Source: Candidatus Parcubacteria bacterium (GTDB taxonomy: Bacteria > Patescibacteriota > Patescibacteriia > PEXW01). From it: a stretch of DNA of 64,000 nt. The stretch is from the NCBI GenBank assembly GCA_003597955.1, contig QZJU01000021.1, positions 44,880-108,879 of the forward strand, written 5' to 3'. Each line of letters opens with the position of its first letter. Position 1 is the first letter of the stretch. A program made the translations under genes and the position numbers. The notes beneath the pieces are model-generated. The model searched no databases, was not told the origin of the DNA, and saw only the letters and a program-made list of their open reading frames with translations. Positions 7,673-50,581 of this stretch are shown here, one piece after another.

Positions 7673-8941
7673 TAATGATGAGCGTTTAAGTTTTGAATGG
7701 TGATTCTCGAATTTGGGTAGAGCAGCGAGCAGTTGCTGCGTGATGGCATCGGCTTTGAAAATCTGTTTTTGGGCCTTTTGCCACGATTTTTGTTTTAGAA
7801 TTTTTTGCAAATGGCCGTGCAAAATTTCCAATTGTGCGATGAGCGCTTCAAAAACCCGGAGCGGGCTTCTTTCGGAAAAAGGCGAATCCGGTAAGCCCAG
7901 CAGGCCTTGTTGAAAAAGCTTGATAACATTCCGGATATAGTGCAGTTCCACCCACAGCGCGCGGATGCAGTTTTTTTCAACCGTGGCGCGGATTCGGGCT
8001 TTTTGTCGGGCCTTCAATTGTTCGGCCTCGAATATTCCCAAAAGTTCAATCTGACCGGAGTTCAGGTTTCGCAAATGCTTGCTGACCAGTCCGTGGAAAT
8101 CGGTCACTTTGTAGTTTTTCACTAAGGCGTTTTTAAACCACCAACTTTTGATTTGCGCCAGCGTTTCTCCGTTTTGTTGCAACCGGGCCAGCTCAATCGC
8201 AATGCCATAGGGGATTAAGCCCGTTTTGACCGCCCGCTGTATGGAAGCGGGCAACCGGCAGTAACGTAAAGCGTTGCTGACAGTTTGGGGACTGCGGCCC
8301 ACCTGCAAGGCAAAATGTTTGAGCGTATAAGTGGTGTTGATGCCTTTAATCAGTCGAAAAAGCATATCGTAAACATAAGCTTCGTCCTCGGGCGGAATGG
8401 CCATATGCGTGTTTTCCGAAAGCTGCAAAAACAAAGCGGGCAAAGCGGAAATGCCTCGACACAGGTTAATCCGGATTTTTTCTTTTCGAAAATGTTTCCG
8501 AAAGCACTCGCCCGGCTTAAGCTTAAAGTTGGTTTCCCGGCAAACTTCACAGCCGGTTTCCCACAAGTATTTGCATGCCCGCAAGCGCCTTTCTCCAGCC
8601 AGCAAAACATAGTAGCGATTTCGGCCTTTTATGGTTTGGGATCGAAATTGCTTGAGGCGAAACCGGGTGCCCCACAACTGGTTAATGGTTCTTAAGTACT
8701 GCCAAAAGCCATTTTCGGTGAATTCCGCGATGGTTGGCGGATGCAAAAGGCCTTTTTGGGCTAAGTCATTGCCCAGTTCGGGAATATTTTCGAATTTTTG
8801 CCTGGGTTGCGGCAGCACGATGATCGAAAAAATCTCAATTTCGCTGGGAATATATTTATAGGGCTGGGAGCCGTTGCCCAAAAGATTCGCGAAAGCGTCC
8901 AACCGGTTTGGGGTTTTTGAGGTGGGCGGGATTTTCGCCAA
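7661..8941 (-). CDS. ParB/Spo0J-like DNA-binding protein with a Cys4 insertion.
   Basis: ParB N-domain motifs VLPQPRQKF and YYVLLAGERRLRAC, and a ParB HTH region (SENTHMAIPPEDEAYVY...QVGRSPQTVSNALRYCRL). A Cys cluster (CEVC...C-x-C) lies between them. No parA is adjacent. Confidence 0.65.
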   Translation of the reverse strand: MAKIPPTSKTPNRLDAFANLLGNGSQPYKYIPSEIEIFSIIVLPQPRQKFENIPELGNDLAQKGLLHPPTIAEFTENGFWQYLRTINQLWGTRFRLKQFRSQTIKGRNRYYVLLAGERRLRACKYLWETGCEVCRETNFKLKPGECFRKHFRKEKIRINLCRGISALPALFLQLSENTHMAIPPEDEAYVYDMLFRLIKGINTTYTLKHFALQVGRSPQTVSNALRYCRLPASIQRAVKTGLIPYGIAIELARLQQNGETLAQIKSWWFKNALVKNYKVTDFHGLVSKHLRNLNSGQIELLGIFEAEQLKARQKARIRATVEKNCIRALWVELHYIRNVIKLFQQGLLGLPDSPFSERSPLRVFEALIAQLEILHGHLQKILKQKSWQKAQKQIFKADAITQQLLAALPKFENHHSKLKRSSLNKS

Positions 8942-9198
8942 AACTGCCTCCTTTCTTAATTTTTTTAAAGTACGATTTTGGTTATTTTTTACACCCCGTG
9001 TGGCGGTAAGTCAACCCCGGATTCCTTTTAAAAGAAGGCGTCGTTTTGGTTGTGGTTAAAGCTTAATTAAAAACTATACCCTTAAAACGGTACCGATATC
9101 AATACCTAAGACCTCTAACCTCAACCATTTATCGGAAAGGGCGTGGGTTAAGAAAATTCCAGCTGTTTTTTTGCAAAAAATGTGCTAGGTTTTTACAT

Positions 9199-9798
9199 AT
9201 GCCCCATCCCGTGCCCGTAATGTTAAAAATTGCCCGATTAGCTTTTGGATTTTGGCTCTTTGTAGAAATTTTAAGTTGGGTCAAAATTTTGCCTTTGACT
9301 TTAGAATTTACCTGGCTGGGCTTGGTGGTGACCGCAAGTTTCGCCTGGGGGATTTTAGAAATTATTTCTTGGCGCTTGCGGAGAGTCGGTGCCCGCAACC
9401 TTTGGGGTCTGACTTATTTCGCGGCCTTATTCAGTCAATGCGTTGACGCTTTTGGCGATATCTCTAGATTCTATGGCAAGTTCGGTTGGTATGATCAATT
9501 TGCGCATTTTGTTGGCGGCGCCGTAGTAGCCTTGGTGATTTTTGATTTGCTCTTGGCCTTGCAGGACTCGGGCAGATTAAATTTACCGGCCAAGGGCCGG
9601 GCCATTATTGCCATTTGCGTTTCAATGGCAGCCGGCAGTCTTTATGAGCTAGAAGAATATGGCGAAGATGTGTTTTTCAACAGCAACCGTCTGGGCAATG
9701 CCTTTGATACGGGCAATGATATGTTCCTGAATACTTTGGGCGCCGCGGTTTTAATCTGGTTGATATATTTTATCAGGCGCCGGCGCAAACTATTATGA
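9199..9798 (+). CDS. Integral membrane protein, function unknown.
   Basis: Multiple hydrophobic helices. Its stop codon overlaps the start codon of the downstream Mur ligase gene. Confidence 0.45.
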   Translation: MPHPVPVMLKIARLAFGFWLFVEILSWVKILPLTLEFTWLGLVVTASFAWGILEIISWRLRRVGARNLWGLTYFAALFSQCVDAFGDISRFYGKFGWYDQFAHFVGGAVVALVIFDLLLALQDSGRLNLPAKGRAIIAICVSMAAGSLYELEEYGEDVFFNSNRLGNAFDTGNDMFLNTLGAAVLIWLIYFIRRRRKLL

Positions 9799-43020: not shown

Positions 43021-43154
43021 AACATCGATCACCACCGGCAAAATCACCCTGTACCATTAAAGGGTACGGGATGAGAATAGTCGAAAAGCCTGTTTAGACA
43101 AGCGTAAAAACTTAATTTAATTAAACATCAATTACCACTGGCAAGATCATTGGG
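43021..43154. repeat. Imperfect ~30-bp direct repeat duplicating the rnj 3' end, flanking a GTACC-type hairpin.
   Basis: Copy B (43123-43154) is the rnj C-terminus (...RRPMILPVVIDV*). Copy A (43021-43052) would encode RVILPVVIDVKK. The hairpin CACCCTGTACC-attaaa-GGGTACGGG at 43045-43070 lies between them. Confidence 0.5.
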
Positions 43155-44839
43155 CGTCGGTTGGTTTTATTAAAGAAGTATTGGCCCAATTCATCACGGA
43201 TTTTATTACCGATATAGGCGTCATTTGCCTCGGTATGGCTTTTTTTATCTTTAAAAAAGGTTTTGACGCGTTTTCTAGTTTCTTCAATCAAGGCCTTGCT
43301 GGTTTTGATGTGCACAAAACCGCGAGTAATGATGTCAGGCTCGCCAATGATATTGCCCGTGTGCCGATCAACATTAACAATCACTACGACCATACCGTCA
43401 GCGGCCAGCATTTGTCGGTCGCGCAAGACCACATTGGAAACATCGCCGACGCCTAAGCCGTCGACAAAGACATAATCAGTTACAGCTTTTTGGTTAAGGA
43501 GTTTGGGCTGGCCATGGGTGAATTCCAGAATCGCACCGTTGTCCAGCACAAAAATTTTTTCCCGGGGGAAGCCTTCGCGAACCGCTAATTTTTCCGCTTC
43601 TTTGTGGAAATAGTGGTTGGCGTAAACCGGCAAAAAATAAGTCGGCCGGATTTGCTTGAGCACGGTTTTCATGTCTTCGGCCGTGCTGTGACCGCTGGAA
43701 TGAATATCCATAATATCGCTGTGGATGACGTTATCGCTGACGCGATAAAGATTGTCTTTCAACCTTTGGATGGTGCGTTCATTGCCTGGAATGATTGAAG
43801 ACGAAAAAACAATAGTGTCGGTTTTTTGAATGCGGACGAAGCGATGGTTTCGGTTGATGATGCGGGAAAGCACGGCATTGCTTTCGCCCTGCGCGCCCGT
43901 GCATATGATGACGATTTTCCGGTCCGGATAATCGCGGATTCTTTCGATGGGAATTAAGGTTTCTTTTTTGATTTTTATGTAACCCAAGCGTTTAGCGGTT
44001 TCCACATTCATTTTCATACTAAAGCCGTCCAAGGCCACTCTTTTGCCGATTTTTTCACAAAACTCCAGGACGTATTTGATTCTTGCCACCTGGGAAGAAA
44101 AAGTGCCGATGATGATGCGGCCGGGCGCTTCACGAATCAGCTTTTCCAAATTGCCGTACATGGTTTTTTCCGTCACGCGATTATGGGTATGGGTCGCGCC
44201 CAGGCTCTCCAGCATTAAAATTGTGGGCTTGGGCAAGCGTGCCAGCTTGGAATATTCCACCGATTGCCGGCCCACCGGATCTTTTTCATAAGTCCAGTCG
44301 CCCGGGTGTATGACCGTGCCGTGGGGGGTGTTAAGAATAACGCCCATGGCATCCATTATTGAATGATCAACTGGGAAAAACCCAACCGAAAAATTTCCCA
44401 GGCGCAGGCGATCGTTGACTGATTTTACCGTAATAGTTTTTAGCCTCTGACTTGAGCCTTTTTTGTAATCTTCCTGCCGGTTTTTAATCAAGGCTAAAGT
44501 TAAAGGCCGGCCAATTATGCTCGGATTGCCCAGTTTTTCCAGCAGAATCGGTGCCGCACCAATATGGTCTAAATGGCCGTGGGTGAAGATTACACCCCGC
44601 ACCTTGGCTTCCTTGCCCTTTAAATAACTGATGTTAGGAATTATGTAATCAATTCCCAGCATGTCTTCTTCGGGGAATTGCACGCCCATATCCACAACAA
44701 CAATATCGTCCTTATATTCAAAGATGGTCATGTTGCGGCCAACTTCCTCTTGGCCGCCGACAGGAATAATTCTTAAACTGTCAGCCGGTTTGAGGCCTTG
44801 GAAGCTCTTGAATTTTTTAGGATTTTTATATTTTTTCAT
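43121..44839 (-). CDS. rnj: Ribonuclease J (beta-CASP metallo-beta-lactamase).
   Basis: HxHxDH motif (THGHLDHIG) and beta-CASP and C-terminal domains. The start is placed at MKKYKNP so the gene does not overlap the NUDIX gene. Confidence 0.88.
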   Translation of the reverse strand: MKKYKNPKKFKSFQGLKPADSLRIIPVGGQEEVGRNMTIFEYKDDIVVVDMGVQFPEEDMLGIDYIIPNISYLKGKEAKVRGVIFTHGHLDHIGAAPILLEKLGNPSIIGRPLTLALIKNRQEDYKKGSSQRLKTITVKSVNDRLRLGNFSVGFFPVDHSIMDAMGVILNTPHGTVIHPGDWTYEKDPVGRQSVEYSKLARLPKPTILMLESLGATHTHNRVTEKTMYGNLEKLIREAPGRIIIGTFSSQVARIKYVLEFCEKIGKRVALDGFSMKMNVETAKRLGYIKIKKETLIPIERIRDYPDRKIVIICTGAQGESNAVLSRIINRNHRFVRIQKTDTIVFSSSIIPGNERTIQRLKDNLYRVSDNVIHSDIMDIHSSGHSTAEDMKTVLKQIRPTYFLPVYANHYFHKEAEKLAVREGFPREKIFVLDNGAILEFTHGQPKLLNQKAVTDYVFVDGLGVGDVSNVVLRDRQMLAADGMVVVIVNVDRHTGNIIGEPDIITRGFVHIKTSKALIEETRKRVKTFFKDKKSHTEANDAYIGNKIRDELGQYFFNKTNRRPMILPVVIDV

Positions 44840-44843
44840 ATTT

Positions 44844-45284
44844 TTATTTTTGATTTTTCTTGAAACGGATAAAAGCTTTAATGGTTTTGTCATAAGTTTC
44901 GGCAAGATTTTTCTTTAGAGCTTGATCCGGCGCCACCCATAAATATTTGTTTAATTCACGGGTTTCCAACCTTATTCGTCCGCCTTTGGTGCGGCAGTAA
45001 ATATCAAAATAAATAAAATGGGCCGGACGGTAAAAGTCCTTAGAATTTATCAGTTCGCCCCAGGCGACAATCGCAATCGCTTTTAACTTTAAACCCGTTT
45101 CTTCTTGGGCTTCCCGAATTTGAGAGGTCAGAATGTTTTCACCGGGTTCCAGGTGTCCGCCCGGCAGAGTCCATTTGTTATGCCATTTTTGGGAGCGCAC
45201 CAGAAGAATTTGTCCTTTTGGATTCTCAATAATTGCTGAACCGACAACTTCAATACCTTTAGTAAACTTGAGGTTTTTTTTCAT
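44844..45284 (-). CDS. NUDIX hydrolase.
   Basis: Nudix box GGHLEPGENILTSQIREAQEETGL. Confidence 0.75.
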   Translation of the reverse strand: MKKNLKFTKGIEVVGSAIIENPKGQILLVRSQKWHNKWTLPGGHLEPGENILTSQIREAQEETGLKLKAIAIVAWGELINSKDFYRPAHFIYFDIYCRTKGGRIRLETRELNKYLWVAPDQALKKNLAETYDKTIKAFIRFKKNQK

Positions 45285-45305
45285 TGCTGACAAATAATTT
45301 TAAAA

Positions 45306-45397
45306 TGGTGTCCTAGGTAGGTGGGACTCGTACTCCCATGACCTTGCGGTCATCCGCCTAGGCGGGACGCGTCAGTTGGTGCACTCTACTGGACAAG
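45306..45397 (-). other. tRNA-like or structured RNA-like element ending in ACACCA. It did not fold as a canonical cloverleaf.
   Basis: Read on the - strand: GTGCAC, GACGCGTC, CCGC-CTAG-GCGG, ATGACC-GCAA-GGTCAT (GNRA hairpin), and TGGGA-GTACGAG-TCCCA (T-arm-like), then ...GGACACCA. Confidence 0.3.
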
Positions 45398-45572
45398 TTT
45401 AGAACCCTGAAATGGGAGGATTATTACCGCTTTCCAGAAGTAGCGCTACAGCAAATGAAATCTTTATTGCAAATGTACCCTGCTCCAATTTCCTAATACT
45501 AGCTTAAAAGCGTTTAAAAATCAAGGGAAAAGTGGTAAAATAGAAGACAAGTAAAGATGTAACGAAGAAGTA

Positions 45573-46127
45573 ATGAAAAAAGAGCAAAATCATCCACAAA
45601 CTAGGGAGCGTATCGCACGGTTGTTGATAGACAAGGGGTTTTTAGAAATGCTGGAAAAAGGGCGTACAAAAAAGAATGAGGAGTTAGATAAGTGGATTTG
45701 TGAGATACGAAAAAACTTCAATCTTTCAAAGTATTATCACAGAGTGTTGCAGACAATAATTTCTATTCCTGACATTCAATATCAAAAGTTCTTAGCTGGC
45801 ACAGCGTGTATCATCGCATTACCTGATGAGTGTCGTAAGAAAAATTATTTTGCAATAGAAGTATTCCCTGAAACATCAGAAAAAGACGTGGTAAGAGCAT
45901 TTTCGGCAATACGCAAGAAATATCACGAATCAGATGAAATACCAAAACGGCTTCGAACCTCACCAAGTTTTTCCAAACAACAGTATGCCTTACAGAGGAG
46001 CGAAGATGGAGCAACGTATAAGAAAATTGCAGAAGAATTGAAGCAAATGGGTTATTCTACGACCTATTTTGAGGTTTCAGATTTAATAAGAAAAATCAAA
46101 AACAAGGCTAAGTCGGTTTCTGGTTGA
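45573..46127 (+). CDS. Hypothetical protein (element cargo) with a possible C-terminal HTH.
   Basis: ORF of 184 aa. The C-terminal ATYKKIAEELKQMGYSTTYFEVSDLIRKIK resembles a sigma-70 region-4-like HTH. Confidence 0.45.
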   Translation: MKKEQNHPQTRERIARLLIDKGFLEMLEKGRTKKNEELDKWICEIRKNFNLSKYYHRVLQTIISIPDIQYQKFLAGTACIIALPDECRKKNYFAIEVFPETSEKDVVRAFSAIRKKYHESDEIPKRLRTSPSFSKQQYALQRSEDGATYKKIAEELKQMGYSTTYFEVSDLIRKIKNKAKSVSG

Positions 46128-46351
46128 TAACGATATAGTTATCGGCCTTATACGTGATTTTGATAGGTAGATAGACTGTGGGTAGAAAGCTCACAGTCTT
46201 ATGAAACTAAGTAGCCAAAAATTATCTGAATTAAAGCAAATCATACAGGATGATTTTGGTGTCAAGCTTGATGACCAATTCGTTTTTGTTATTGGCAGTG
46301 AACTTATTGCACTATTTGACCATTTGTACTCTTACGATTTTCAACAAAAAA

Positions 46352-46645
46352 ATGAGCAACCTAACGAGCGTAACTGAAATATCAATCACGCCTATTAGAC
46401 CACGAGATGGTCTTACCGCTTTTGCCTCTTTTGTCCTTGACGATAAGTATTTCGTTGCAGGCGTAGCAATTTTTACAAAATTGAGCGGTGGCTTCCGCTT
46501 GGTTTTCCCGACCCGCAAAATTGGTCAAACCAATCTCAATTTGTTTAATCCAATCAAGCGTGAAGTTGGCGAGATAATTGAGAGAAAAGTTAGTGAAGAA
46601 TTAACAAAACTGTATGATAGACAACTTACGGAATATAAAACTTAG
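46352..46645 (+). CDS. SpoVG-like protein.
   Basis: ITPIRPRDGLTAFASFVLDDKYFVAGVAIFTKLSGGFRLVFPTRK matches the SpoVG fold signature. The start is placed at MSNLTSV. Confidence 0.6.
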   Translation: MSNLTSVTEISITPIRPRDGLTAFASFVLDDKYFVAGVAIFTKLSGGFRLVFPTRKIGQTNLNLFNPIKREVGEIIERKVSEELTKLYDRQLTEYKT

Positions 46646-46679
46646 AGTCCCTAAATGTTGGCAGGATAAAAGGATAATG

Positions 46680-47033
46680 CGTTTTTTGAGAAAACATTAT
46701 TCGGGGAAAAAACGTACAACCGCCATAGCAATTTATGTAACTCTAAGCGAGATGGCAAGTAATGCTAATTCAGAAACCTTTAAGTCCTATTACAGTCAAA
46801 TTGGTGAGATGGCTGGTAAATCATCATCAACCATCAAGCGTTATTGCAATGATTTTATCAAGCTGACTATTTTAGAAAAAAAGAATCATAAGAAGGGGAA
46901 GCACAACTTAGCTAATCAGTGGTCGTTACTAGCATACTCTCCAATGAGATTACAGTCGGGTCGTAATAATGACCTGACCCCTAATAAAATTAGTCTCAAC
47001 CAAGGCCAAAATAATAACCCCGACTCCATTTAA
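46680..47033 (+). CDS. Hypothetical, possibly a winged-helix DNA-binding protein (element cargo).
   Basis: The start is placed at MRFLRK. The ORF track start at 46614 overlaps the preceding gene. Confidence 0.4.
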   Translation, partial: RFLRKHYSGKKRTTAIAIYVTLSEMASNANSETFKSYYSQIGEMAGKSSSTIKRYCNDFIKLTILEKKNHKKGKHNLANQWSLLAYSPMRLQSGRNNDLTPNKISLNQGQNNNPDSI

Positions 47034-47132
47034 TATACTGACCACATCTCTACTTACCTAATGACCCACTAATAGAATATATTACTTAGAATTATTTACT
47101 AAGAAGGATACCCCCCATAAGCTAATCCTTAT

Positions 47133-47501
47133 ATGAAGTGTCAATTTACAAAACAAGACGGCCAACAATGTGAGGGAAATGCAATATATGATAGCCAGTA
47201 TTGTTTTTCGCATAACCCTGACAGTCGGCAGGCAAAGAATGAGGCAGTCTTAAACGGCGGGCTTGCCCTCAAAAAAATAAAGTTTGAATTAGAAGAAGTC
47301 GAAATAAAATCTATTCAGGACATCACTGCACTTTTGGCCAAAACAATAAATGAACTTAGGACTAACAAAATCCCACCCAAAATCGCCGTTAATATAGGTT
47401 ATTTATCAAACATCATGATTACATCTCTTAAGGAGGGTGAGATTGAAAAAAGATTGGAGGTGATAGAAAATGCAATCAAACTACATAAGTCGAATGAATA
47501 A
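47133..47501 (+). CDS. Hypothetical protein with an N-terminal Cys4 cluster (element cargo).
   Basis: CQFTKQDGQQCEGNAIYDSQYCFSH. Confidence 0.45.
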   Translation: MKCQFTKQDGQQCEGNAIYDSQYCFSHNPDSRQAKNEAVLNGGLALKKIKFELEEVEIKSIQDITALLAKTINELRTNKIPPKIAVNIGYLSNIMITSLKEGEIEKRLEVIENAIKLHKSNE

Positions 47502-48051
47502 AATTATTTCCGAAATGGATTTACCAGCGATGGATGAGCATTTTTTCAATAGTGGAGGTTTAAGTTTTTTAAATGGGCTACCAAAAGGCAAAGTGACGTC
47601 GTTACTTTTGTATGGGACATACCAATCCTCAAGGTTTTATCTTGTCACGGTAGCGTTTAATAAAATTAAACTCTTGACGTATATCAGCGAGCTGATTGCA
47701 GAAGAGTTTGAAAACCTAATTTTGTTATCATACCTCTTTAGTGTTTCAGGCGATGAGAAAACTGTGAGGATGAGAAAATTATTCTCTGATAAGAACCCCG
47801 ATGACACACTAAAGCAAATCTCCCAGTTAGTAGAGAGGCAATCGGTTTTACTAGAGGAATTATCGAAGTTGAAACCACTAATAAAGGAAAACCACAACAC
47901 ACCTTATGTTAGCGAGCAATTTGACGGCTGCAACTTGAAGGATTTGGAAAATAAAATCCTTAATGAGTCATTTTCAGTTGGTTTGGAGACAGCCAATTTA
48001 ATAGCAAAAAAACTCTTAATTTCGTTGACAAATAGCCTATATGAGGCATAA
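47470..48051 (+). CDS. Hypothetical protein (element cargo).
   Basis: ORF overlapping the previous gene by 32 nt (translationally coupled). Confidence 0.45.
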   Translation: MQSNYISRMNKIISEMDLPAMDEHFFNSGGLSFLNGLPKGKVTSLLLYGTYQSSRFYLVTVAFNKIKLLTYISELIAEEFENLILLSYLFSVSGDEKTVRMRKLFSDKNPDDTLKQISQLVERQSVLLEELSKLKPLIKENHNTPYVSEQFDGCNLKDLENKILNESFSVGLETANLIAKKLLISLTNSLYEA

Positions 48052-48215
48052 TTAAGGCACAATCTAAATAGCGGTGACACGCATTCAAGCCCCCGTAAGG
48101 GTGGGTCGAAGCGTGTCACCGCATTAAGCCCATACCTGCGGGGGCTTCAATTTCCAGACAAATATGCAGGTCATTAACAGTCAATTCTTTAAGAAAATAA
48201 TTAACCAAAAGAAGT

Positions 48216-48815
48216 ATGGACAACCAACCTTCTCAAGAGCAAAAACCAAAAAGTAAGTTAAAAAGATTGGGTAAAAGAGTTTTAGCCGTAATAGTTGGGC
48301 TAGTGGCTTTGTTTGTCATTCTGATAATTGTTGCAGTTGCCACAGATAACAAAAATAGTAATAGTAACAGTGCTGGTAGTGAAAATAATAACGCAAGCAG
48401 CGTGGAGATGACCTATGAGAGTAAACTTGAAAAAGCAATCACTGATGAGATTGGCGCAAAAAATAATATGGATAAACCAAAAGTCAGGAGCGTTAAGGTG
48501 ATGAATCCTAATGAAACGTTGGTTGAAATCAACGGCGACGAGAACCTGACAAGTGGGATGACTAAAAAAGGAATTGATAAGGACATCCTCAACACGTTCA
48601 AGGCTATATTCGCCACTGATACAAACCCCAATCTCCTTGCGTCTGTTGATGTTTATTTCCCGACAGTGGACAAATACGGCAATGAATCCGATAACCGTGT
48701 TATCCGTGCTCTCCTTAAACGGGAAACTGCTAACAAGATACAGTGGGATAATATCTTGTTAGAAAATATCCCAGCCGTGTTCGATGATTACGATGAGTAT
48801 GTAAAGTTTGAGTAA
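48216..48815 (+). CDS. Membrane-anchored hypothetical protein (element cargo).
   Basis: N-terminal TM helix followed by a Ser/Asn-rich linker. Confidence 0.45.
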   Translation: MDNQPSQEQKPKSKLKRLGKRVLAVIVGLVALFVILIIVAVATDNKNSNSNSAGSENNNASSVEMTYESKLEKAITDEIGAKNNMDKPKVRSVKVMNPNETLVEINGDENLTSGMTKKGIDKDILNTFKAIFATDTNPNLLASVDVYFPTVDKYGNESDNRVIRALLKRETANKIQWDNILLENIPAVFDDYDEYVKFE

Positions 48816-48817
48816 CC

Positions 48818-50401
48818 ATGAATGCCGTCCTATTCGCCAGAGTGTCCAGTAAAGAGCAGGAGGAGTCAGGGTACTCCCTCCCCGCTCAAGAAAAACTCCT
48901 TAAAGAATACAGCGAGAGGAAAAGTTTTAGCATTGCTAAGATATTTTCCATTTCAGAGTCAGCAACTGGCAAAAAGCAACGGGAGACATTCAACGAGATG
49001 ATTGAGTATGTGACCAAAGGCAATATCAAGCACATCATCTGCGAGAAAGCCGACAGGCTGACCCGAAACTTCAAGGATATGGTGATGATTGATGACTGGC
49101 TGGGTAAGGACGCAGAACGGCAGGTGCACCTTGTTAAAGACTCTCTCGTCTTGCACCAAAACTCCCGCTCCCAAGAAAAGCTTAACTGGGGTATCCGTGT
49201 GCTGTTCGCAAAAAATTACGTTGATAATCTGGCCGAGGAGGTCAAGAAAGGCAAGCGTGAAAAAGTAGCGCAAGGATGGTATCCGACACGGCCACCTTTA
49301 GGGTATATTTCCGTGGGTGAAAGAAGCCACAGGATTTGCGTACCTGACGAACATAAAGCCCCTCTTATCAGGAAAATGTTTGAGTGGTACGCAACAGGCA
49401 ATTACTCCCTAAAGAAGGTGGTGGAAATGATGTATGAAACGGGCTTAAGGACAATCCACAATACCAAGGTACAAAAAAGTCGGCTTCACCAGATTTTGTC
49501 TGACCCCTTTTACTGCGGAAAAATTGTCTGGAAGGGTGAAGAATATCAGGGGAAACAAGAAAAAATCGTGTCAGAGGAGTTGTTTCAGCAAGTCCAAGCA
49601 ATCCTTAAGCAAAAAACGACCCCGCACTACCGCAAACACCTCTCGCTGTTTAAGGGGTTAATCAGGTGCAGTGAATGTGGCGGGTTAATCACTTGGGAAA
49701 CGCACAAAGGGCATTGGTACGGTCACTGCAACCATTACCGTAACTGCTCCAAAAAGGAGTATGTGAGGCAAGAAAAACTTGAGGAACAACTACTCAACCA
49801 ATTTGTAGCTATAGCGCCTAAAAGCGATAGGTTGGTCAAATGGATACAGGAAGCGCTCAAGGAAAGCCACGCAGACGAGATTACGTTCAATACCCAAGCC
49901 CGTGATGAGCTTAACCGTCGCTATGAACACGCCCAGAAGCGCCTAGAAGTCCTCTACGACGACAAAATTGACGGTAAGATAACTACGGAGTTCTACGAGG
50001 CCAAGTTCAAACAGTACAGCGCAGAGCAGAAGGCTGTTTTGAAATCACTTAATGACCACGATGACGCCAAGTCCAAGTATTACGAGCTTGGTGTTAATGT
50101 GCTCGAGCTGGCTCATAGGGCAAAAGAAATCTACGAGCACCCCAAAATGCTGGTTGAGCAGAGACGGACGCTACTTAACCATATTTTTTCGAACCTGCGC
50201 TTAAATGGCGATAGATTAGAGGTTTCTTACACGCCAGTAGTTGAGGTTTTAGCGCAATTGACTCCCGCCCTCAATAAAACTTTCGAACTCCAGAAAAGTA
50301 CCGCAAACACAACACTAACCCTTCAAAGTATGAACGGTTCTAGTGTTTGGTGCCGGAGAGAGGACTTGAACCTCCAAGGGCTTGCGCCCACACGGCTCTG
50401 A
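48818..50401 (+). CDS. Large serine recombinase (resolvase/invertase N-domain, recombinase domain and zinc ribbon).
   Basis: Catalytic Ser region AVLFARVSSKEQ, a recombinase domain, and a CSECGG...HCNHYRNC zinc ribbon. The last ~17 codons are encoded by tRNA-Leu sequence. Confidence 0.8.
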   Translation: MNAVLFARVSSKEQEESGYSLPAQEKLLKEYSERKSFSIAKIFSISESATGKKQRETFNEMIEYVTKGNIKHIICEKADRLTRNFKDMVMIDDWLGKDAERQVHLVKDSLVLHQNSRSQEKLNWGIRVLFAKNYVDNLAEEVKKGKREKVAQGWYPTRPPLGYISVGERSHRICVPDEHKAPLIRKMFEWYATGNYSLKKVVEMMYETGLRTIHNTKVQKSRLHQILSDPFYCGKIVWKGEEYQGKQEKIVSEELFQQVQAILKQKTTPHYRKHLSLFKGLIRCSECGGLITWETHKGHWYGHCNHYRNCSKKEYVRQEKLEEQLLNQFVAIAPKSDRLVKWIQEALKESHADEITFNTQARDELNRRYEHAQKRLEVLYDDKIDGKITTEFYEAKFKQYSAEQKAVLKSLNDHDDAKSKYYELGVNVLELAHRAKEIYEHPKMLVEQRRTLLNHIFSNLRLNGDRLEVSYTPVVEVLAQLTPALNKTFELQKSTANTTLTLQSMNGSSVWCRREDLNLQGLAPTRL

Positions 50402-50434
50402 ACCGTGCGTGTATACCAGTTTCACCACTCCGGC
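50348..50434 (-). tRNA. tRNA-Leu (anticodon CAG), long variable arm, 3' CCA encoded.
   Basis: The cloverleaf folds by eye. Acceptor GCCGGAG/CTCCGGC, anticodon loop UUCAGAG, T-arm GGAGG-TTCAAGT-CCTCT, then ACCA. Confidence 0.8.
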
Positions 50435-50581
50435 AATAGACCATGCGCTCGTATTATCCCTTGTTTGCCAGTTCCGCCACTAGGGCAGTATTTAAGGATT
50501 CCACCCCGCCACAGGACATACTGAAGTGCGTCGGCGGGATGTCGTCCCTAGCAGGCTTAAATTTTTATACAGCCTGGGCGC

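What the first reader, a model, noticed from the sequence alone, without database searches (positions are those of the whole stretch)
45398..50434. A ~5 kb low-GC cassette with a large serine recombinase reading into the 3' end of tRNA-Leu(CAG): probable integrated element
Seven + strand genes (hypotheticals, a SpoVG-like protein, a putative winged-helix protein, a Cys4 protein, a membrane protein) end in a 527-aa large serine recombinase. The last ~17 codons of that ORF are encoded by the - strand tRNA-Leu gene (50348-50434), which is the typical picture of an element integrated at a tRNA 3' end. Base composition is visibly more AT-rich than the flanks. Large serine recombinases leave only a 2-bp crossover, so no long direct repeats are expected at the borders.
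Basis: partly seen in the sequence, partly recalled or inferred. Interest (0 to 1): 0.7.

Follow-up and report, generated by a model that had tools for sequence, protein, structure and literature searches.

The report
Small serine-integrase element at tRNA-Leu
A 5-kb mobile DNA element sits at the very end of a leucine tRNA gene in a Parcubacteria genome, and its integrase gene contains the element's own attachment site, so inserting into the chromosome cuts off the enzyme's natural tail and replaces it with a short stretch read backwards through the tRNA.

Summary

- **Element.** A 4,971-bp element is integrated at the extreme 3' end of tRNA-Leu(CAG). It is bounded by an identical 7-bp core, TTGGTGC, at 45376-45382 and 50347-50353.
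- **Empty site.** Related Parcubacteria keep UvrC-SecG-SBP-tRNA-Leu-(NUDIX)-RNase J without the cassette.
- **tRNA.** The tRNA stays host-encoded. No tRNA half is duplicated.
- **Split integrase gene.** attP lies inside the large serine recombinase (LSR) ORF. The excised form would be 549 aa. Its last 37 codons, a family-conserved tail (..DKFRTLKW..PE..LLQ), now lie at the far end of the element (45383-45496). The integrated form, 527 aa, instead reads 15 codons of antisense tRNA.
- **Family.** This LSR clade is large and mostly in Patescibacteria. Of 116 near-full-length loci sampled, 67 end in an opposite-strand tRNA (Asn, Gln, Asp, Tyr or Arg).
- **Independent checks.** One circular 6.7-kb relative shows the free form. 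In the window and at least seven other elements, the element-side arm carries the T-loop box exactly 5 bp farther from the core than the tRNA does. This matches the published attP/attB rule for serine integrases.
- **Partner gene.** A 58-aa gene (46201-46377) accompanies the LSR in 90 loci.

Activity and the function of the tail swap are inferred, not shown.

The parts
45306..45375 (-). Host-side (B') flank. It is a tRNA-Leu-like relic with a variable-arm-like hairpin, a T-arm-like hairpin and an acceptor-like end in CACCA. It is not part of the element.
   Evidence: Sequence reading. Not called as a tRNA by ARAGORN or Rfam. Homologous units lie downstream of tRNA-Leu in the empty-site relative L001.
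45376..45382 (+). attL core TTGGTGC, identical to the attR core. The crossover dinucleotide lies somewhere inside it.
   Evidence: This is the same 7-mer as at 50347-50353, and it is placed exactly where the P-arm homology predicts it.
45383..45412 (+). P arm of attP (ACTCTACT GGAC AAGTT TAGAAC CC...). It carries a T-loop-like box 5 bp farther from the core than the tRNA does.
   Evidence: alignment of attL with attR. (match to the attP-type sequences of L062, L018 and L105). The 5-bp rule is described in PMC3783163.
45383..45496 (+). Detached 3' end of the LSR gene: 37 codons plus a stop (TLLDKFRTLKWEDYYRFPEVALQQMKSLLQMYPAPIS*). It is in frame with the core and would be joined to 48818-50353 in the excised circle.
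   Evidence: Translation. Alignment with the C-terminal extensions of attP-type homologues. An HMM built without the window gives E=2.5e-6 and E=4.3e-7, and this is the only significant hit in the 64-kb window on either strand.
45513..45541 (+). Promoter-like site ahead of the cargo genes. Weak evidence.
   Evidence: Consensus scan. The number of sites found in the region is not above the shuffle expectation.
45573..46127 (+). Cargo ORF 1, 184 aa, no family match.
46201..46377 (+). 58-aa helical-hairpin protein, a conserved partner of this LSR family. Candidate recombination directionality factor or regulator (inference).
   Evidence: tblastn hits in 12 loci. An iterative profile search finds it in 90 loci, on the same strand in all but one, 5-3600 nt upstream of the LSR. 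AF2 predicts two helices. No fold or family match.
46352..46645 (+). SpoVG-like protein. The listed ORF starts at 46250, but the likely start is the ATG at 46352.
   Evidence: Pfam PF04026, 31.1 bits against a cut-off of 29.6. NCBIfam match is weak. Homologues occur in elements L042 and L131.
46614..47033 (+). Winged-helix protein resembling the N-terminal domain of DnaD/O-type replication initiators.
   Evidence: phrog_186 (E=6.5e-6), phrog_270 and phrog_345.
47133..47501 (+). Cys-rich 122-aa protein.
   Evidence: Homologues occur in LSR elements L021 and L071.
47470..48051 (+). Cargo ORF, 193 aa, no family match.
48216..48815 (+). Membrane or surface protein, 199 aa.
   Evidence: phrog_8263 (E=2e-15) and phrog_25008.
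48818..50401 (+). Large serine recombinase in its integrated form, 527 aa. Residues 1-512 are element-encoded (the last two, W-C, lie in the shared core). Residues 513-527 (RREDLNLQGLAPTRL) are read from antisense tRNA-Leu.
   Evidence: A family member has the serine-integrase fold.
50347..50353 (+). attR core TTGGTGC, the reverse complement of tRNA-Leu G71-C72-A73-C74-C75-A76 plus 1 nt.
50348..50434 (-). Host tRNA-Leu(CAG), intact. Its T-arm and acceptor end (about 50354-50380) form the B arm of attB.
   Evidence: Orthologous tRNA-Leu(CAG) sits at the same locus in relatives L001, L003, L004 and L005.

Best explanation
Window 45376-50353 holds a 4,971-bp integrative element in a Candidatus Parcubacteria chromosome. 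A large serine recombinase (LSR) inserted it at the extreme 3' end of the host tRNA-Leu(CAG) gene.

**Sites.** attB is the tRNA's T-arm and acceptor end (B arm), a 7-bp core, and the downstream spacer (B'). attP lies inside the LSR's own ORF. P' is the coding sequence just before the core. P is the next roughly 30 bp, which imitates a tRNA acceptor/T-arm but carries the T-loop box T[ATC]GAAC 5 bp farther out.

**Consequences of strand exchange within the core.**
1. The tRNA sequence is unchanged, so no gene restoration or long repeat is needed.
2. The int gene is split. The free circle encodes a 549-aa enzyme ending in a conserved short helical module of about 37 aa on a flexible linker. The integrated copy encodes a 527-aa enzyme that has lost this module and runs on through antisense tRNA to a chance stop in the anticodon loop.

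**What is shown in silico.** The borders, the core, the split ORF, the family behaviour and the 5-bp geometry.

**What is inferred.**
- The zinc-ribbon domain of the enzyme reads the T-loop box, which is conserved across tRNAs, while the acceptor stem sets which tRNA is used.
- The tail swap alters the enzyme's activity, stability or directionality after integration.
- The conserved 58-aa partner gene is the directionality factor.
- The element is still mobile.

The cargo has no virion or conjugation genes. The element is best described as a small cryptic integrative element, possibly plasmid-like.
For: **Empty site.** Relatives L001-L005 have SBP-tRNA-Leu(CAG)-(NUDIX)-RNase J with no LSR or cargo homologues.

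**Composition.** Cargo GC is 0.372 against 0.474 +/- 0.017 elsewhere in the window.

**Recombinase.** It has the three LSR Pfam domains. A family member folds like the serine integrases solved in complex with att DNA: 9y66, 9dxh, Bxb1 9iu2, PhiC31 9rah and 4kis.

**Family.**
- About 2,000 homologues score E<=1e-20.
- Of 116 near-full-length loci, 67 end in an opposite-strand tRNA (Asn 44, Gln 14, Asp 5, Tyr 3, Arg 1). A further 14 look like intron-containing tRNA-Asn (one, L012, confirmed by Rfam), and at least 8 are in attP configuration.

**Free versus integrated form.** Circular contig L107 (127-bp terminal repeat) and its tRNA-Asp-integrated relatives follow the same pattern up to ...TTTGGCGGG, which corresponds to tRNA positions 71-76. 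They then diverge into a pseudo-T-arm in L107 and a real T-arm in the relatives.

**The window's junctions.**
- The 7-bp core is identical at both ends.
- The P arm TGGACAAGTTTAGAACCCTGAAATGG matches attP-type homologues, for example L062 TGGACGAGTTTAGAACTCTTAACTGG.
- In-frame translation gives the conserved tail.
- An HMM built without the window gives E about 1e-6 there, and this is the only hit in the window.
- The same detached tail lies 7-10 kb from the tRNA in 10 other integrated elements.

**Geometry.** The T-loop box is exactly 5 bp farther out in attL than in attR in the window and at least 7 other elements. L107 shows the same net shift by hand alignment. This is the published attP/attB rule for serine integrases (PMC3783163).

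**No displaced tRNA half.** No duplicated tRNA 3' half was found upstream of the LSR in the 31 integrated family loci scanned or in the window (for the window).
Against: - No near-identical copy of this element exists in the collections searched. The best LSR identity is 64%, so excision and the attP junction are reconstructed, not observed.
- The closest host relatives are distant (flanking SBP 56-67% identical), so the empty site is shown by synteny, not at base-pair resolution.
- The B' and P' arms show only weak similarity to each other.
- Several attP-configured LSR copies sit inside long chromosomal contigs (L013, L018, L062, L089). The simple reading 'attP form = free circle' does not explain them.
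- Nothing tested here shows that the tail swap or the 58-aa protein has the proposed function. Fold and family searches for the 58-aa protein were uninformative.
Confidence: 0.82

Rival explanations
1. The element is a fossil. It was inserted by the mechanism above but can no longer excise. On this reading the intact reading frames only reflect a recent insertion, and the tail swap has no regulatory meaning.
For: - No circular or empty-site sequence for this exact element was found.
- Only one source contig carries it.
- The tRNA-encoded tails of integrated copies vary in length and sequence, so the integrated enzyme may simply be a truncated product.
Against: - The LSR ORF, every family-invariant residue including the catalytic serine region, both cores, the P arm and the detached 37-codon tail are all intact.
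- Detached tails are also intact in 10 other elements. This argues for selection on the ability to excise.
Confidence: 0.25
2. This is classical tRNA-island integration. Crossover is in the anticodon loop or T-loop, the element supplies a replacement tRNA 3' half, and the tRNA-like sequence at 45306-45395 is the displaced original half.
For: - The LSR ORF stops exactly in the anticodon loop.
- A tRNA-like relic ending in CACCA lies near the left end.
- Relatives show arrays of tRNA-Leu 3'-half-like relics.
Against: - The relic's acceptor strand (CTAGGAC) does not pair with the 5' strand of the present tRNA (GCCGGAG).
- Similar relics are present at the empty site of L001.
- No displaced tRNA half was found in the 31 integrated family loci scanned or in the window.
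- The free-versus-integrated comparison places divergence at tRNA positions 70/71.
- The true P arm and the detached int tail lie at 45383 onward.
Confidence: 0.03
3. The cassette is a defective prophage or a phage satellite rather than a plasmid-like integrative element.
For: - The LSR matches a phage integrase PHROG.
- Two cargo proteins match PHROGs of unknown or 'moron' function.
- One has a replication-initiator-like winged helix.
- One 9-kb IMG/VR contig carries a family member.
Against: - There are no capsid, terminase, portal, tail or lysis matches in the window's cargo or in the circular relative L107.
- Only 2 of 2.9 million viral contigs encode a relative.
- Element sizes are 5-10 kb.
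Confidence: 0.12
4. The region is native host DNA with a domesticated recombinase, and the relatives have lost it.
For: The LSR gene's GC content (0.461) is host-like.
Against: - The cargo is about 6 sd more AT-rich than the rest of the window.
- The att-site anatomy is that of a serine-integrase attL/attR pair.
- All five relatives, from three lineages, lack it.
- Family members sit at different tRNAs in many unrelated hosts.
Confidence: 0.02

Closest known systems
Serine integrases (large serine recombinases) of phages and ICEs: Listeria A118/LI integrase, Bxb1, PhiC31, TP901-1
   Same: - Same domain set (Resolvase + Recombinase + zinc ribbon with coiled coil) and same predicted fold.
- Short att sites with a small identical core.
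- The distal recognition motif is 5 bp farther from the centre in attP than in attB (PMC3783163).
   Different: - Sequence is very remote. Only the TP901-1 catalytic domain is detectable in the PDB by sequence, at E=2e-4.
- The target is a tRNA gene. A 2020 survey stated that use of a t(m)RNA gene by an S-Int had not been reported, and found only 14 of 297 candidate cases (PMC7192596).
- attP lies inside the integrase ORF, so integration exchanges the C-terminal tail. I found no report of this for a serine integrase.
- I do not recall any of the named integrases having an intragenic attP (from memory, not checked here).
SSV1-type 'suicidal' tyrosine integrases of archaeal viruses and plasmids
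   Same: The att site lies within the integrase gene, integration is into a tRNA gene, and the int gene is partitioned on integration (PMC8371274).
   Different: - They belong to a different enzyme superfamily (tyrosine recombinases) and are described as exclusive to archaea.
- There the gene is disrupted. Here all catalytic and DNA-binding domains stay intact and only a tail of about 37 aa is exchanged.
Tyrosine-integrase genomic islands and prophages in tRNA genes (Williams 2002 sublocation classes; Islander/TIGER islands)
   Same: The int gene abuts the tRNA 3' end and the tRNA stays functional. The 3'-end sublocation resembles one of the known classes (from memory; the reference appears in PMC12884075).
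   Different: There is no tyrosine recombinase and no duplicated block of tRNA sequence (a 7-bp core only). Recognition follows the serine-integrase half-site rules.
Integration-dependent immunity of mycobacteriophages (attP inside the repressor gene; Broussard et al. 2013, from memory, not checked here)
   Same: Integration changes the C-terminus of a phage protein because attP is intragenic, and this acts as a switch between the free and integrated states.
   Different: There the remodelled gene is the repressor and the integrase is a tyrosine recombinase. Here the remodelled gene is the serine integrase itself, and a switch function has not been shown.

Membership tests
Large serine recombinase / serine integrase | N-terminal resolvase-type catalytic domain with the catalytic serine | tested here: met
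   PF00239, E=4.4e-20, residues 3-153. The R8-V9-S10-S11 motif falls in nearly invariant columns of the family alignment.
Large serine recombinase / serine integrase | Recombinase domain followed by a zinc-ribbon domain with an embedded coiled coil | tested here: met
   PF07508 (E=3.5e-19) and PF13408 (E=9e-8). The AF2 model of homologue P0088 shows long helices at 337-441 inside the zinc-ribbon region. Foldseek top hits are full-length serine integrase-att complexes.
Large serine recombinase / serine integrase | Short attP and attB sharing only a small core, with the distal (ZD) motif shifted 5 bp between attP and attB | tested here: met
   The core is 7 bp. GGAC sits at the same offset in both arms, and TAGAAC (P arm) lies 5 bp farther out than TTGAAC (B arm). 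The same holds in L012, L016, L041, L072, L084, L103 and L107. The rule is in PMC3783163.
Large serine recombinase / serine integrase | Catalyses conservative attP x attB recombination with a 2-bp staggered cut; excision requires a directionality factor | not testable with these tools
The conserved 58-aa partner gene is only a candidate RDF.
Integrated mobile element (genomic island) | Absent from the same locus in related genomes | tested here: met
   L001-L005 keep the flanking genes and the tRNA without the cassette. tblastn finds no LSR or cargo hits in them.
Integrated mobile element (genomic island) | The free (circular) form or the restored empty site of this very element has been observed | tested here: not met
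   There is no exact or close copy in the viral, metagenome or genome collections. Only a 40%-identical relative (L107) was seen as a circle.
Classical tRNA-integrating island (tyrosine integrase type) | Tyrosine recombinase, plus a direct repeat that duplicates a block of the tRNA 3' part | tested here: not met
   No Phage_integrase domain is present. The repeat is only 7 bp. No displaced tRNA half was found across the family.
SSV-type suicidal integrase | attP lies within the int ORF | tested here: met
   The detached in-frame 37-codon tail at 45383-45496 continues the ORF across the core.
SSV-type suicidal integrase | Tyrosine recombinase whose gene is inactivated by integration | tested here: not met
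   This is a serine recombinase, and its catalytic, recombinase and zinc-ribbon domains stay contiguous.
Prophage | Virion structural, packaging or lysis genes | tested here: not met
   No such PHROG, Pfam or NCBIfam matches were found in the seven cargo ORFs.

The most novel reading that the evidence does not exclude
This is a widespread, largely Patescibacteria-borne clade of serine integrases specialised on tRNA 3' ends. On this reading the zinc-ribbon domain reads the universal T-loop box as double-stranded DNA and the acceptor stem sets the target. Placing attP inside the int ORF would be a built-in state switch. The free element makes a full-length enzyme with a C-terminal helical module. 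The integrated element makes a tail-less enzyme whose activity, stability or directionality differs, and which would work with the conserved 58-aa partner for excision.
Probability: 0.35. Interest if true: 0.8.

Novelty: new variant of a known kind. Interest (0 to 1): 0.62.

Why it matters
**tRNA targeting by serine integrases.** Serine integrases are described in the literature as not targeting tRNA genes. A 2,168-genome survey called such use unreported and in need of proof (PMC7192596). Here a whole clade does so, with an att-site logic that can be read from sequence: a shared core at tRNA positions 71-76, and the T-loop box shifted by 5 bp.

**Possible applications.** That logic would give a family of compact integrases whose targets are conserved and present in every cell. 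Their specificity appears to have moved between Asn, Gln, Asp, Tyr, Arg and Leu tRNAs. This is relevant to integrase engineering and to genetic tools for uncultivated CPR bacteria.

**Intragenic attP.** An attP inside the integrase gene, so that integration remodels the enzyme, has so far been described only for archaeal tyrosine integrases. It offers a testable model of how an integrase could sense whether it is free or integrated.

**Annotation.** Annotators should not treat the tRNA-encoded tail as the real C-terminus of these proteins.

Tried and rejected
1. **Anticodon-loop crossover with an element-supplied tRNA 3' half.** Rejected. No displaced half was found in the window or in the 31 family loci scanned, and the free and integrated forms diverge at the acceptor end.
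2. **My first placement of attL at 45306-45310, with the pseudo-tRNA taken as the P arm.** Rejected. The family P arm and the detached int tail were found at 45383 onward, next to a 7-bp core. The pseudo-tRNA is host-side, as in relative L001.
3. **'DSNLQP..YT'-tailed loci without an ARAGORN tRNA call taken as free forms.** Rejected. They are tRNA-Asn genes interrupted by a group I intron.
4. **The structured module 4.8 kb upstream of the LSR in L027 and L049 taken as attL.** Rejected. It is a LOOT RNA, and it does not carry the detached tail.
5. **Exact look-up of the LSR.** Not on record.
6. **Searches for close relatives.** The viral-contig scan with the single protein found nothing. The metagenome scan found no relative above 60% identity. 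The attP-junction search in viral contigs found nothing.
7. **Cargo annotation with Pfam, PHROGs, NCBIfam and PADLOC.** Mostly no matches.
8. **The 58-aa partner protein.** The Pfam, PDB sequence and Foldseek searches were uninformative.
9. **Folding the left intergenic region as RNA on either strand.** Not better than shuffled sequence.
10. **Rfam gathering-mode scan of the whole window.** It returned nothing, although the tRNA is found in E-value mode.

Full report
**1. Observation**

The ORF list shows a run of + strand ORFs from 45573 to 48815, followed by a 527-aa ORF at 48818-50401. That ORF carries the three domains of a large serine recombinase (LSR): Resolvase, Recombinase and Zn_ribbon_recom. 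It also matches phrog_95 'integrase' at E=5e-76.

ARAGORN and Rfam both find tRNA-Leu(CAG) at 50348-50434 on the minus strand. The last 54 nt of the ORF are the reverse complement of the tRNA from A76 back to U33, and the stop codon falls in the anticodon loop.

The cargo has GC 0.372. Windows of 3.3 kb elsewhere in the window average 0.474 +/- 0.017, with a minimum of 0.421. The LSR gene itself is host-like at 0.461.

NCBIfam and PADLOC add nothing.

**2. Host and empty site**

The flanking solute-binding protein (SBP) is 100% identical to a protein of a Candidatus Parcubacteria MAG. Contigs carrying its closest relatives (56-67% identity) keep the order UvrC-SecG-SBP-tRNA-Leu(CAG)-(NUDIX)-RNase J. 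Only 0.3-0.7 kb lies between the SBP and the next gene. None of these contigs has an LSR or any cargo homologue. The cassette is therefore an insertion relative to the conserved gene order, although the comparison is at genus or family distance.

**3. The recombinase family ends in tRNA genes**

About 2,000 homologues score E<=1e-20, at 50-64% identity. Many end in '..LLRGxDSNLQP..', which is a T-arm and acceptor stem read backwards. I fetched 80 loci from GTDB genomes, mostly Patescibacteria, and 64 from metagenomes. The census of 116 loci with a near-full-length LSR is:

| LSR 3' end | Loci |
|---|---|
| Opposite-strand tRNA-Asn(GTT) | 44 |
| tRNA-Gln | 14 |
| tRNA-Asp | 5 |
| tRNA-Tyr | 3 |
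| tRNA-Arg | 1 |
| Intron-containing tRNA-Asn-like (motif-based; group I intron confirmed in L012 by Rfam, 95 bits) | 14 |
| T-loop motif present but no tRNA call | 4 |
| Alternative conserved tail '..W[DE][DE]FRTLKW..PEL..QVKQLLQ' | 8 or more |
| Contig ends at the LSR | 5 |
| Other or unclassified (some attP-like, e.g. L028, L070, L078, L107) | 18 |

The window is the only tRNA-Leu case. ORF/tRNA overlap ranges from 13 to 111 nt. The tRNA-encoded tail is therefore not a conserved part of the protein.

**4. Where the crossover is**

I first tested the classical model, in which the element replaces the tRNA 3' half. No displaced half exists in the window or upstream of the LSR in the 31 integrated family loci scanned.

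A direct comparison settled the point. Contig L107 has a 127-bp terminal repeat, so it is a circular element of about 6.7 kb. Its relatives L106, L108, L109, L110 and L113 are integrated at tRNA-Asp. L107 and these relatives follow the same pattern through the end of the LSR gene up to ..TTTGGCGGG, which corresponds to tRNA positions 71-76. They then diverge. The integrated copies continue with the real T-arm, and the circle continues with a T-arm-like sequence. Crossover is therefore at the extreme 3' end of the tRNA, and the tRNA stays host-encoded.

**5. The window's left junction**

Just inside the left end, 45383-45412 reads ACTCTAC TGGACAAGTTTAGAACCCTGAAATGG. This matches the attP-type sequences of homologues: L062 TGGACGAGTTTAGAACTCTTAACTGG, L018 GGGACGATTTTAGAACTCTAAAATGG, and L105. 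It is preceded by TTGGTGC (45376-45382), the same 7-mer that joins the LSR gene to the tRNA at 50347-50353.

Reading on from the shared W-C codons gives TLLDKFRTLKWEDYYRFPEVALQQMKSLLQMYPAPIS*. This aligns with the conserved C-terminal extension of the attP-type homologues. An HMM of that extension, built without the window, scores E=2.5e-6 and E=4.3e-7 there. Nothing else in the 64-kb window, on either strand, scores better than E=1.2.

The same HMM finds detached tails 7-10 kb from the tRNA, on the LSR strand, in ten other integrated elements: L012, L016, L041, L042, L043, L063, L068, L072, L084 and L103.

The conclusions for the window are:
- The element is 4,971 bp.
- Its free form would encode a 549-aa LSR. 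Attp-type homologues are 552 aa.
- Integration splits the gene 37 codons before its end.

The tRNA-like sequence at 45306-45375, which I first mistook for the P arm, is on the host side. Similar relics follow tRNA-Leu in the empty-site relative L001.

**6. Independent check of the att assignment**

For the Listeria integrase, the zinc-ribbon-domain motif lies 5 bp closer to the centre in attB than in attP, and the same was seen for other serine integrases (Rutherford et al. 2013, PMC3783163).

In the window, both arms read core + 8 nt + GGAC. The tRNA arm then continues directly with TTGAAC. The element arm has AAGTT and then TAGAAC, exactly 5 bp more.

The same 5-bp insertion is seen in L012, L016, L041, L072, L084 and L103. 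Hand alignment shows the same net 5-bp shift in the free/integrated pair L107/L106. The shifted motif is the T-loop box of the tRNA.

This also explains the two tail types. '..D-S/L-N-L-Q..' and '..D-x-F-R-T..' are the same DNA motif read in two frames.

**7. Protein structure and partner gene**

An AF2 model of the attP-type homologue P0088 (mean pLDDT 80.7) shows the standard serine-integrase body. A disordered linker follows at residues 486-516, and then three short helices at 517-549 with pLDDT 54-78. The attP core maps to the linker, so integration removes just this terminal module. Foldseek's best hits are cryo-EM and crystal structures of serine integrases on att DNA. By sequence the family is remote from all solved ones.

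Between L018 and L105, the tail region beyond the att site shows several synonymous differences (read directly). This suggests selection on the protein and not only on the DNA site.

The 58-aa ORF at 46201-46377 has relatives in 90 loci. All but one are on the LSR strand, 5-3600 nt upstream of it, including in the circular L107. It is predicted to be a helical hairpin with no informative match. It is a candidate directionality factor by position only.

**8. What kind of element**

The cargo differs between family members. It shares only small genes: the 58-aa partner, SpoVG-like and Cys-rich proteins. No virion, packaging, lysis or conjugation genes were found in the window or in the circular L107. 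Only two IMG/VR contigs encode a relative. The best description is a small cryptic integrative element, possibly plasmid-like given the initiator-like winged-helix protein.

**9. Comparison with what is known**

- **tRNA targets.** A survey of 2,168 genomes stated that serine integrases were 'not known for targeting tRNA genes'. It found only 14 of 297 candidate cases and asked for proof (PMC7192596).
- **Discovery papers and searches.** The large LSR discovery paper (PMC10083194) does not contain the word tRNA. Full-text searches for serine recombinases in Patescibacteria/CPR, or for an attP inside a serine integrase gene, found nothing relevant.
- **Intragenic att sites.** These are described for archaeal 'suicidal' tyrosine integrases, said to be exclusive to archaea (PMC8371274). 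Here the arrangement is analogous but not suicidal.

The finding is therefore a new variant of a known kind.

**10. Caveats**

- No near-identical copy, circle or base-pair-level empty site is available for this element.
- The crossover dinucleotide cannot be fixed within the 7-bp core.
- The B' and P' arms are only weakly alike.
- attP-configured copies inside long chromosomal contigs (L013, L018, L062, L089) are unexplained.
- The roles of the tail and of the 58-aa protein are inferences.

Noticed in passing
L012 9604-9833 (-); also L007, L034, L046, L051, L058, L061, L071, L072, L079, L092, L097, L100: tRNA-Asn(GUU) genes of Patescibacteria-type genomes carry a group I intron in the anticodon loop. 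Rfam Intron_gpI scores 95 bits in L012. ARAGORN therefore misses these tRNAs, and LSR ORFs read on into the intron.
   Followed up: partly
L027 4673-4780 (-); homologous segments in L049, L020, L034, L083 (alignment A2): A LOOT RNA (RF03000, 74.5 bits) lies about 4.8 kb upstream of the LSR, in the same orientation as tRNA-Asn, and shows compensatory changes between loci. By eye it resembles the 3' end of a group I intron fused to a degenerate tRNA-Asn 3' half. The LOOT model also weakly hits the intron/exon-2 junction in L012 (30 bits).
   Followed up: partly
window 45306-45375 (-) and 50463-50486 (-); L001 11885-12345; L004 2545-2700 and 2860-2925: tRNA-Leu is flanked by tRNA-Leu-like relics: 5' pieces upstream and 3' pieces downstream. 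Their acceptor strands do not match the resident tRNA. In several of them a GC-rich hairpin CCCGCC-N4-GGCGGG sits where the anticodon arm should be. The LSR mechanism does not create such duplications, so their origin is unexplained.
   Followed up: partly
L013, L018, L062, L089 (LSR at 8001-9650 in each): LSR genes in the un-split attP configuration, each with the 58-aa partner gene upstream, lie inside long contigs (147-984 kb, one a complete Wolfebacteria genome). No tRNA lies within 8 kb. These are not simply free circles. The tail in L062 is degenerate.
   Followed up: partly
L018, L024, L025: Family members at 56-57% identity are found in contigs labelled as archaea (Methanodesulfokora, Methanoperedens, Bathyarchaeia). 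Several others are in bins labelled Gammaproteobacteria. This could be cross-domain spread, mis-binning or mislabelling.
   Followed up: no
L004 2704-2791: The tRNA-Leu(CAG) at the orthologous locus of this relative has a completely different acceptor stem (GGGCGGA/TCCGCCC) from those of the window (GCCGGAG) and L001 (GCCGCGG). Relics carrying the other acceptor sequences lie beside it.
   Followed up: no
window 1-64000: The Rfam gathering-threshold scan of the whole window returned no match, although the same tRNA scores 49.3 bits (threshold 29) in the E-value scan of the sub-region. A negative result from the fast mode should not be trusted for tRNAs.
   Followed up: no
window 43121-44905 (-) and 44844-45293 (-): The listed RNase J ORF (TTG start at 44905) overlaps the NUDIX ORF by 62 nt. 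The RNase J start is probably over-extended: relatives are 572-580 aa against 594 aa here.
   Followed up: no
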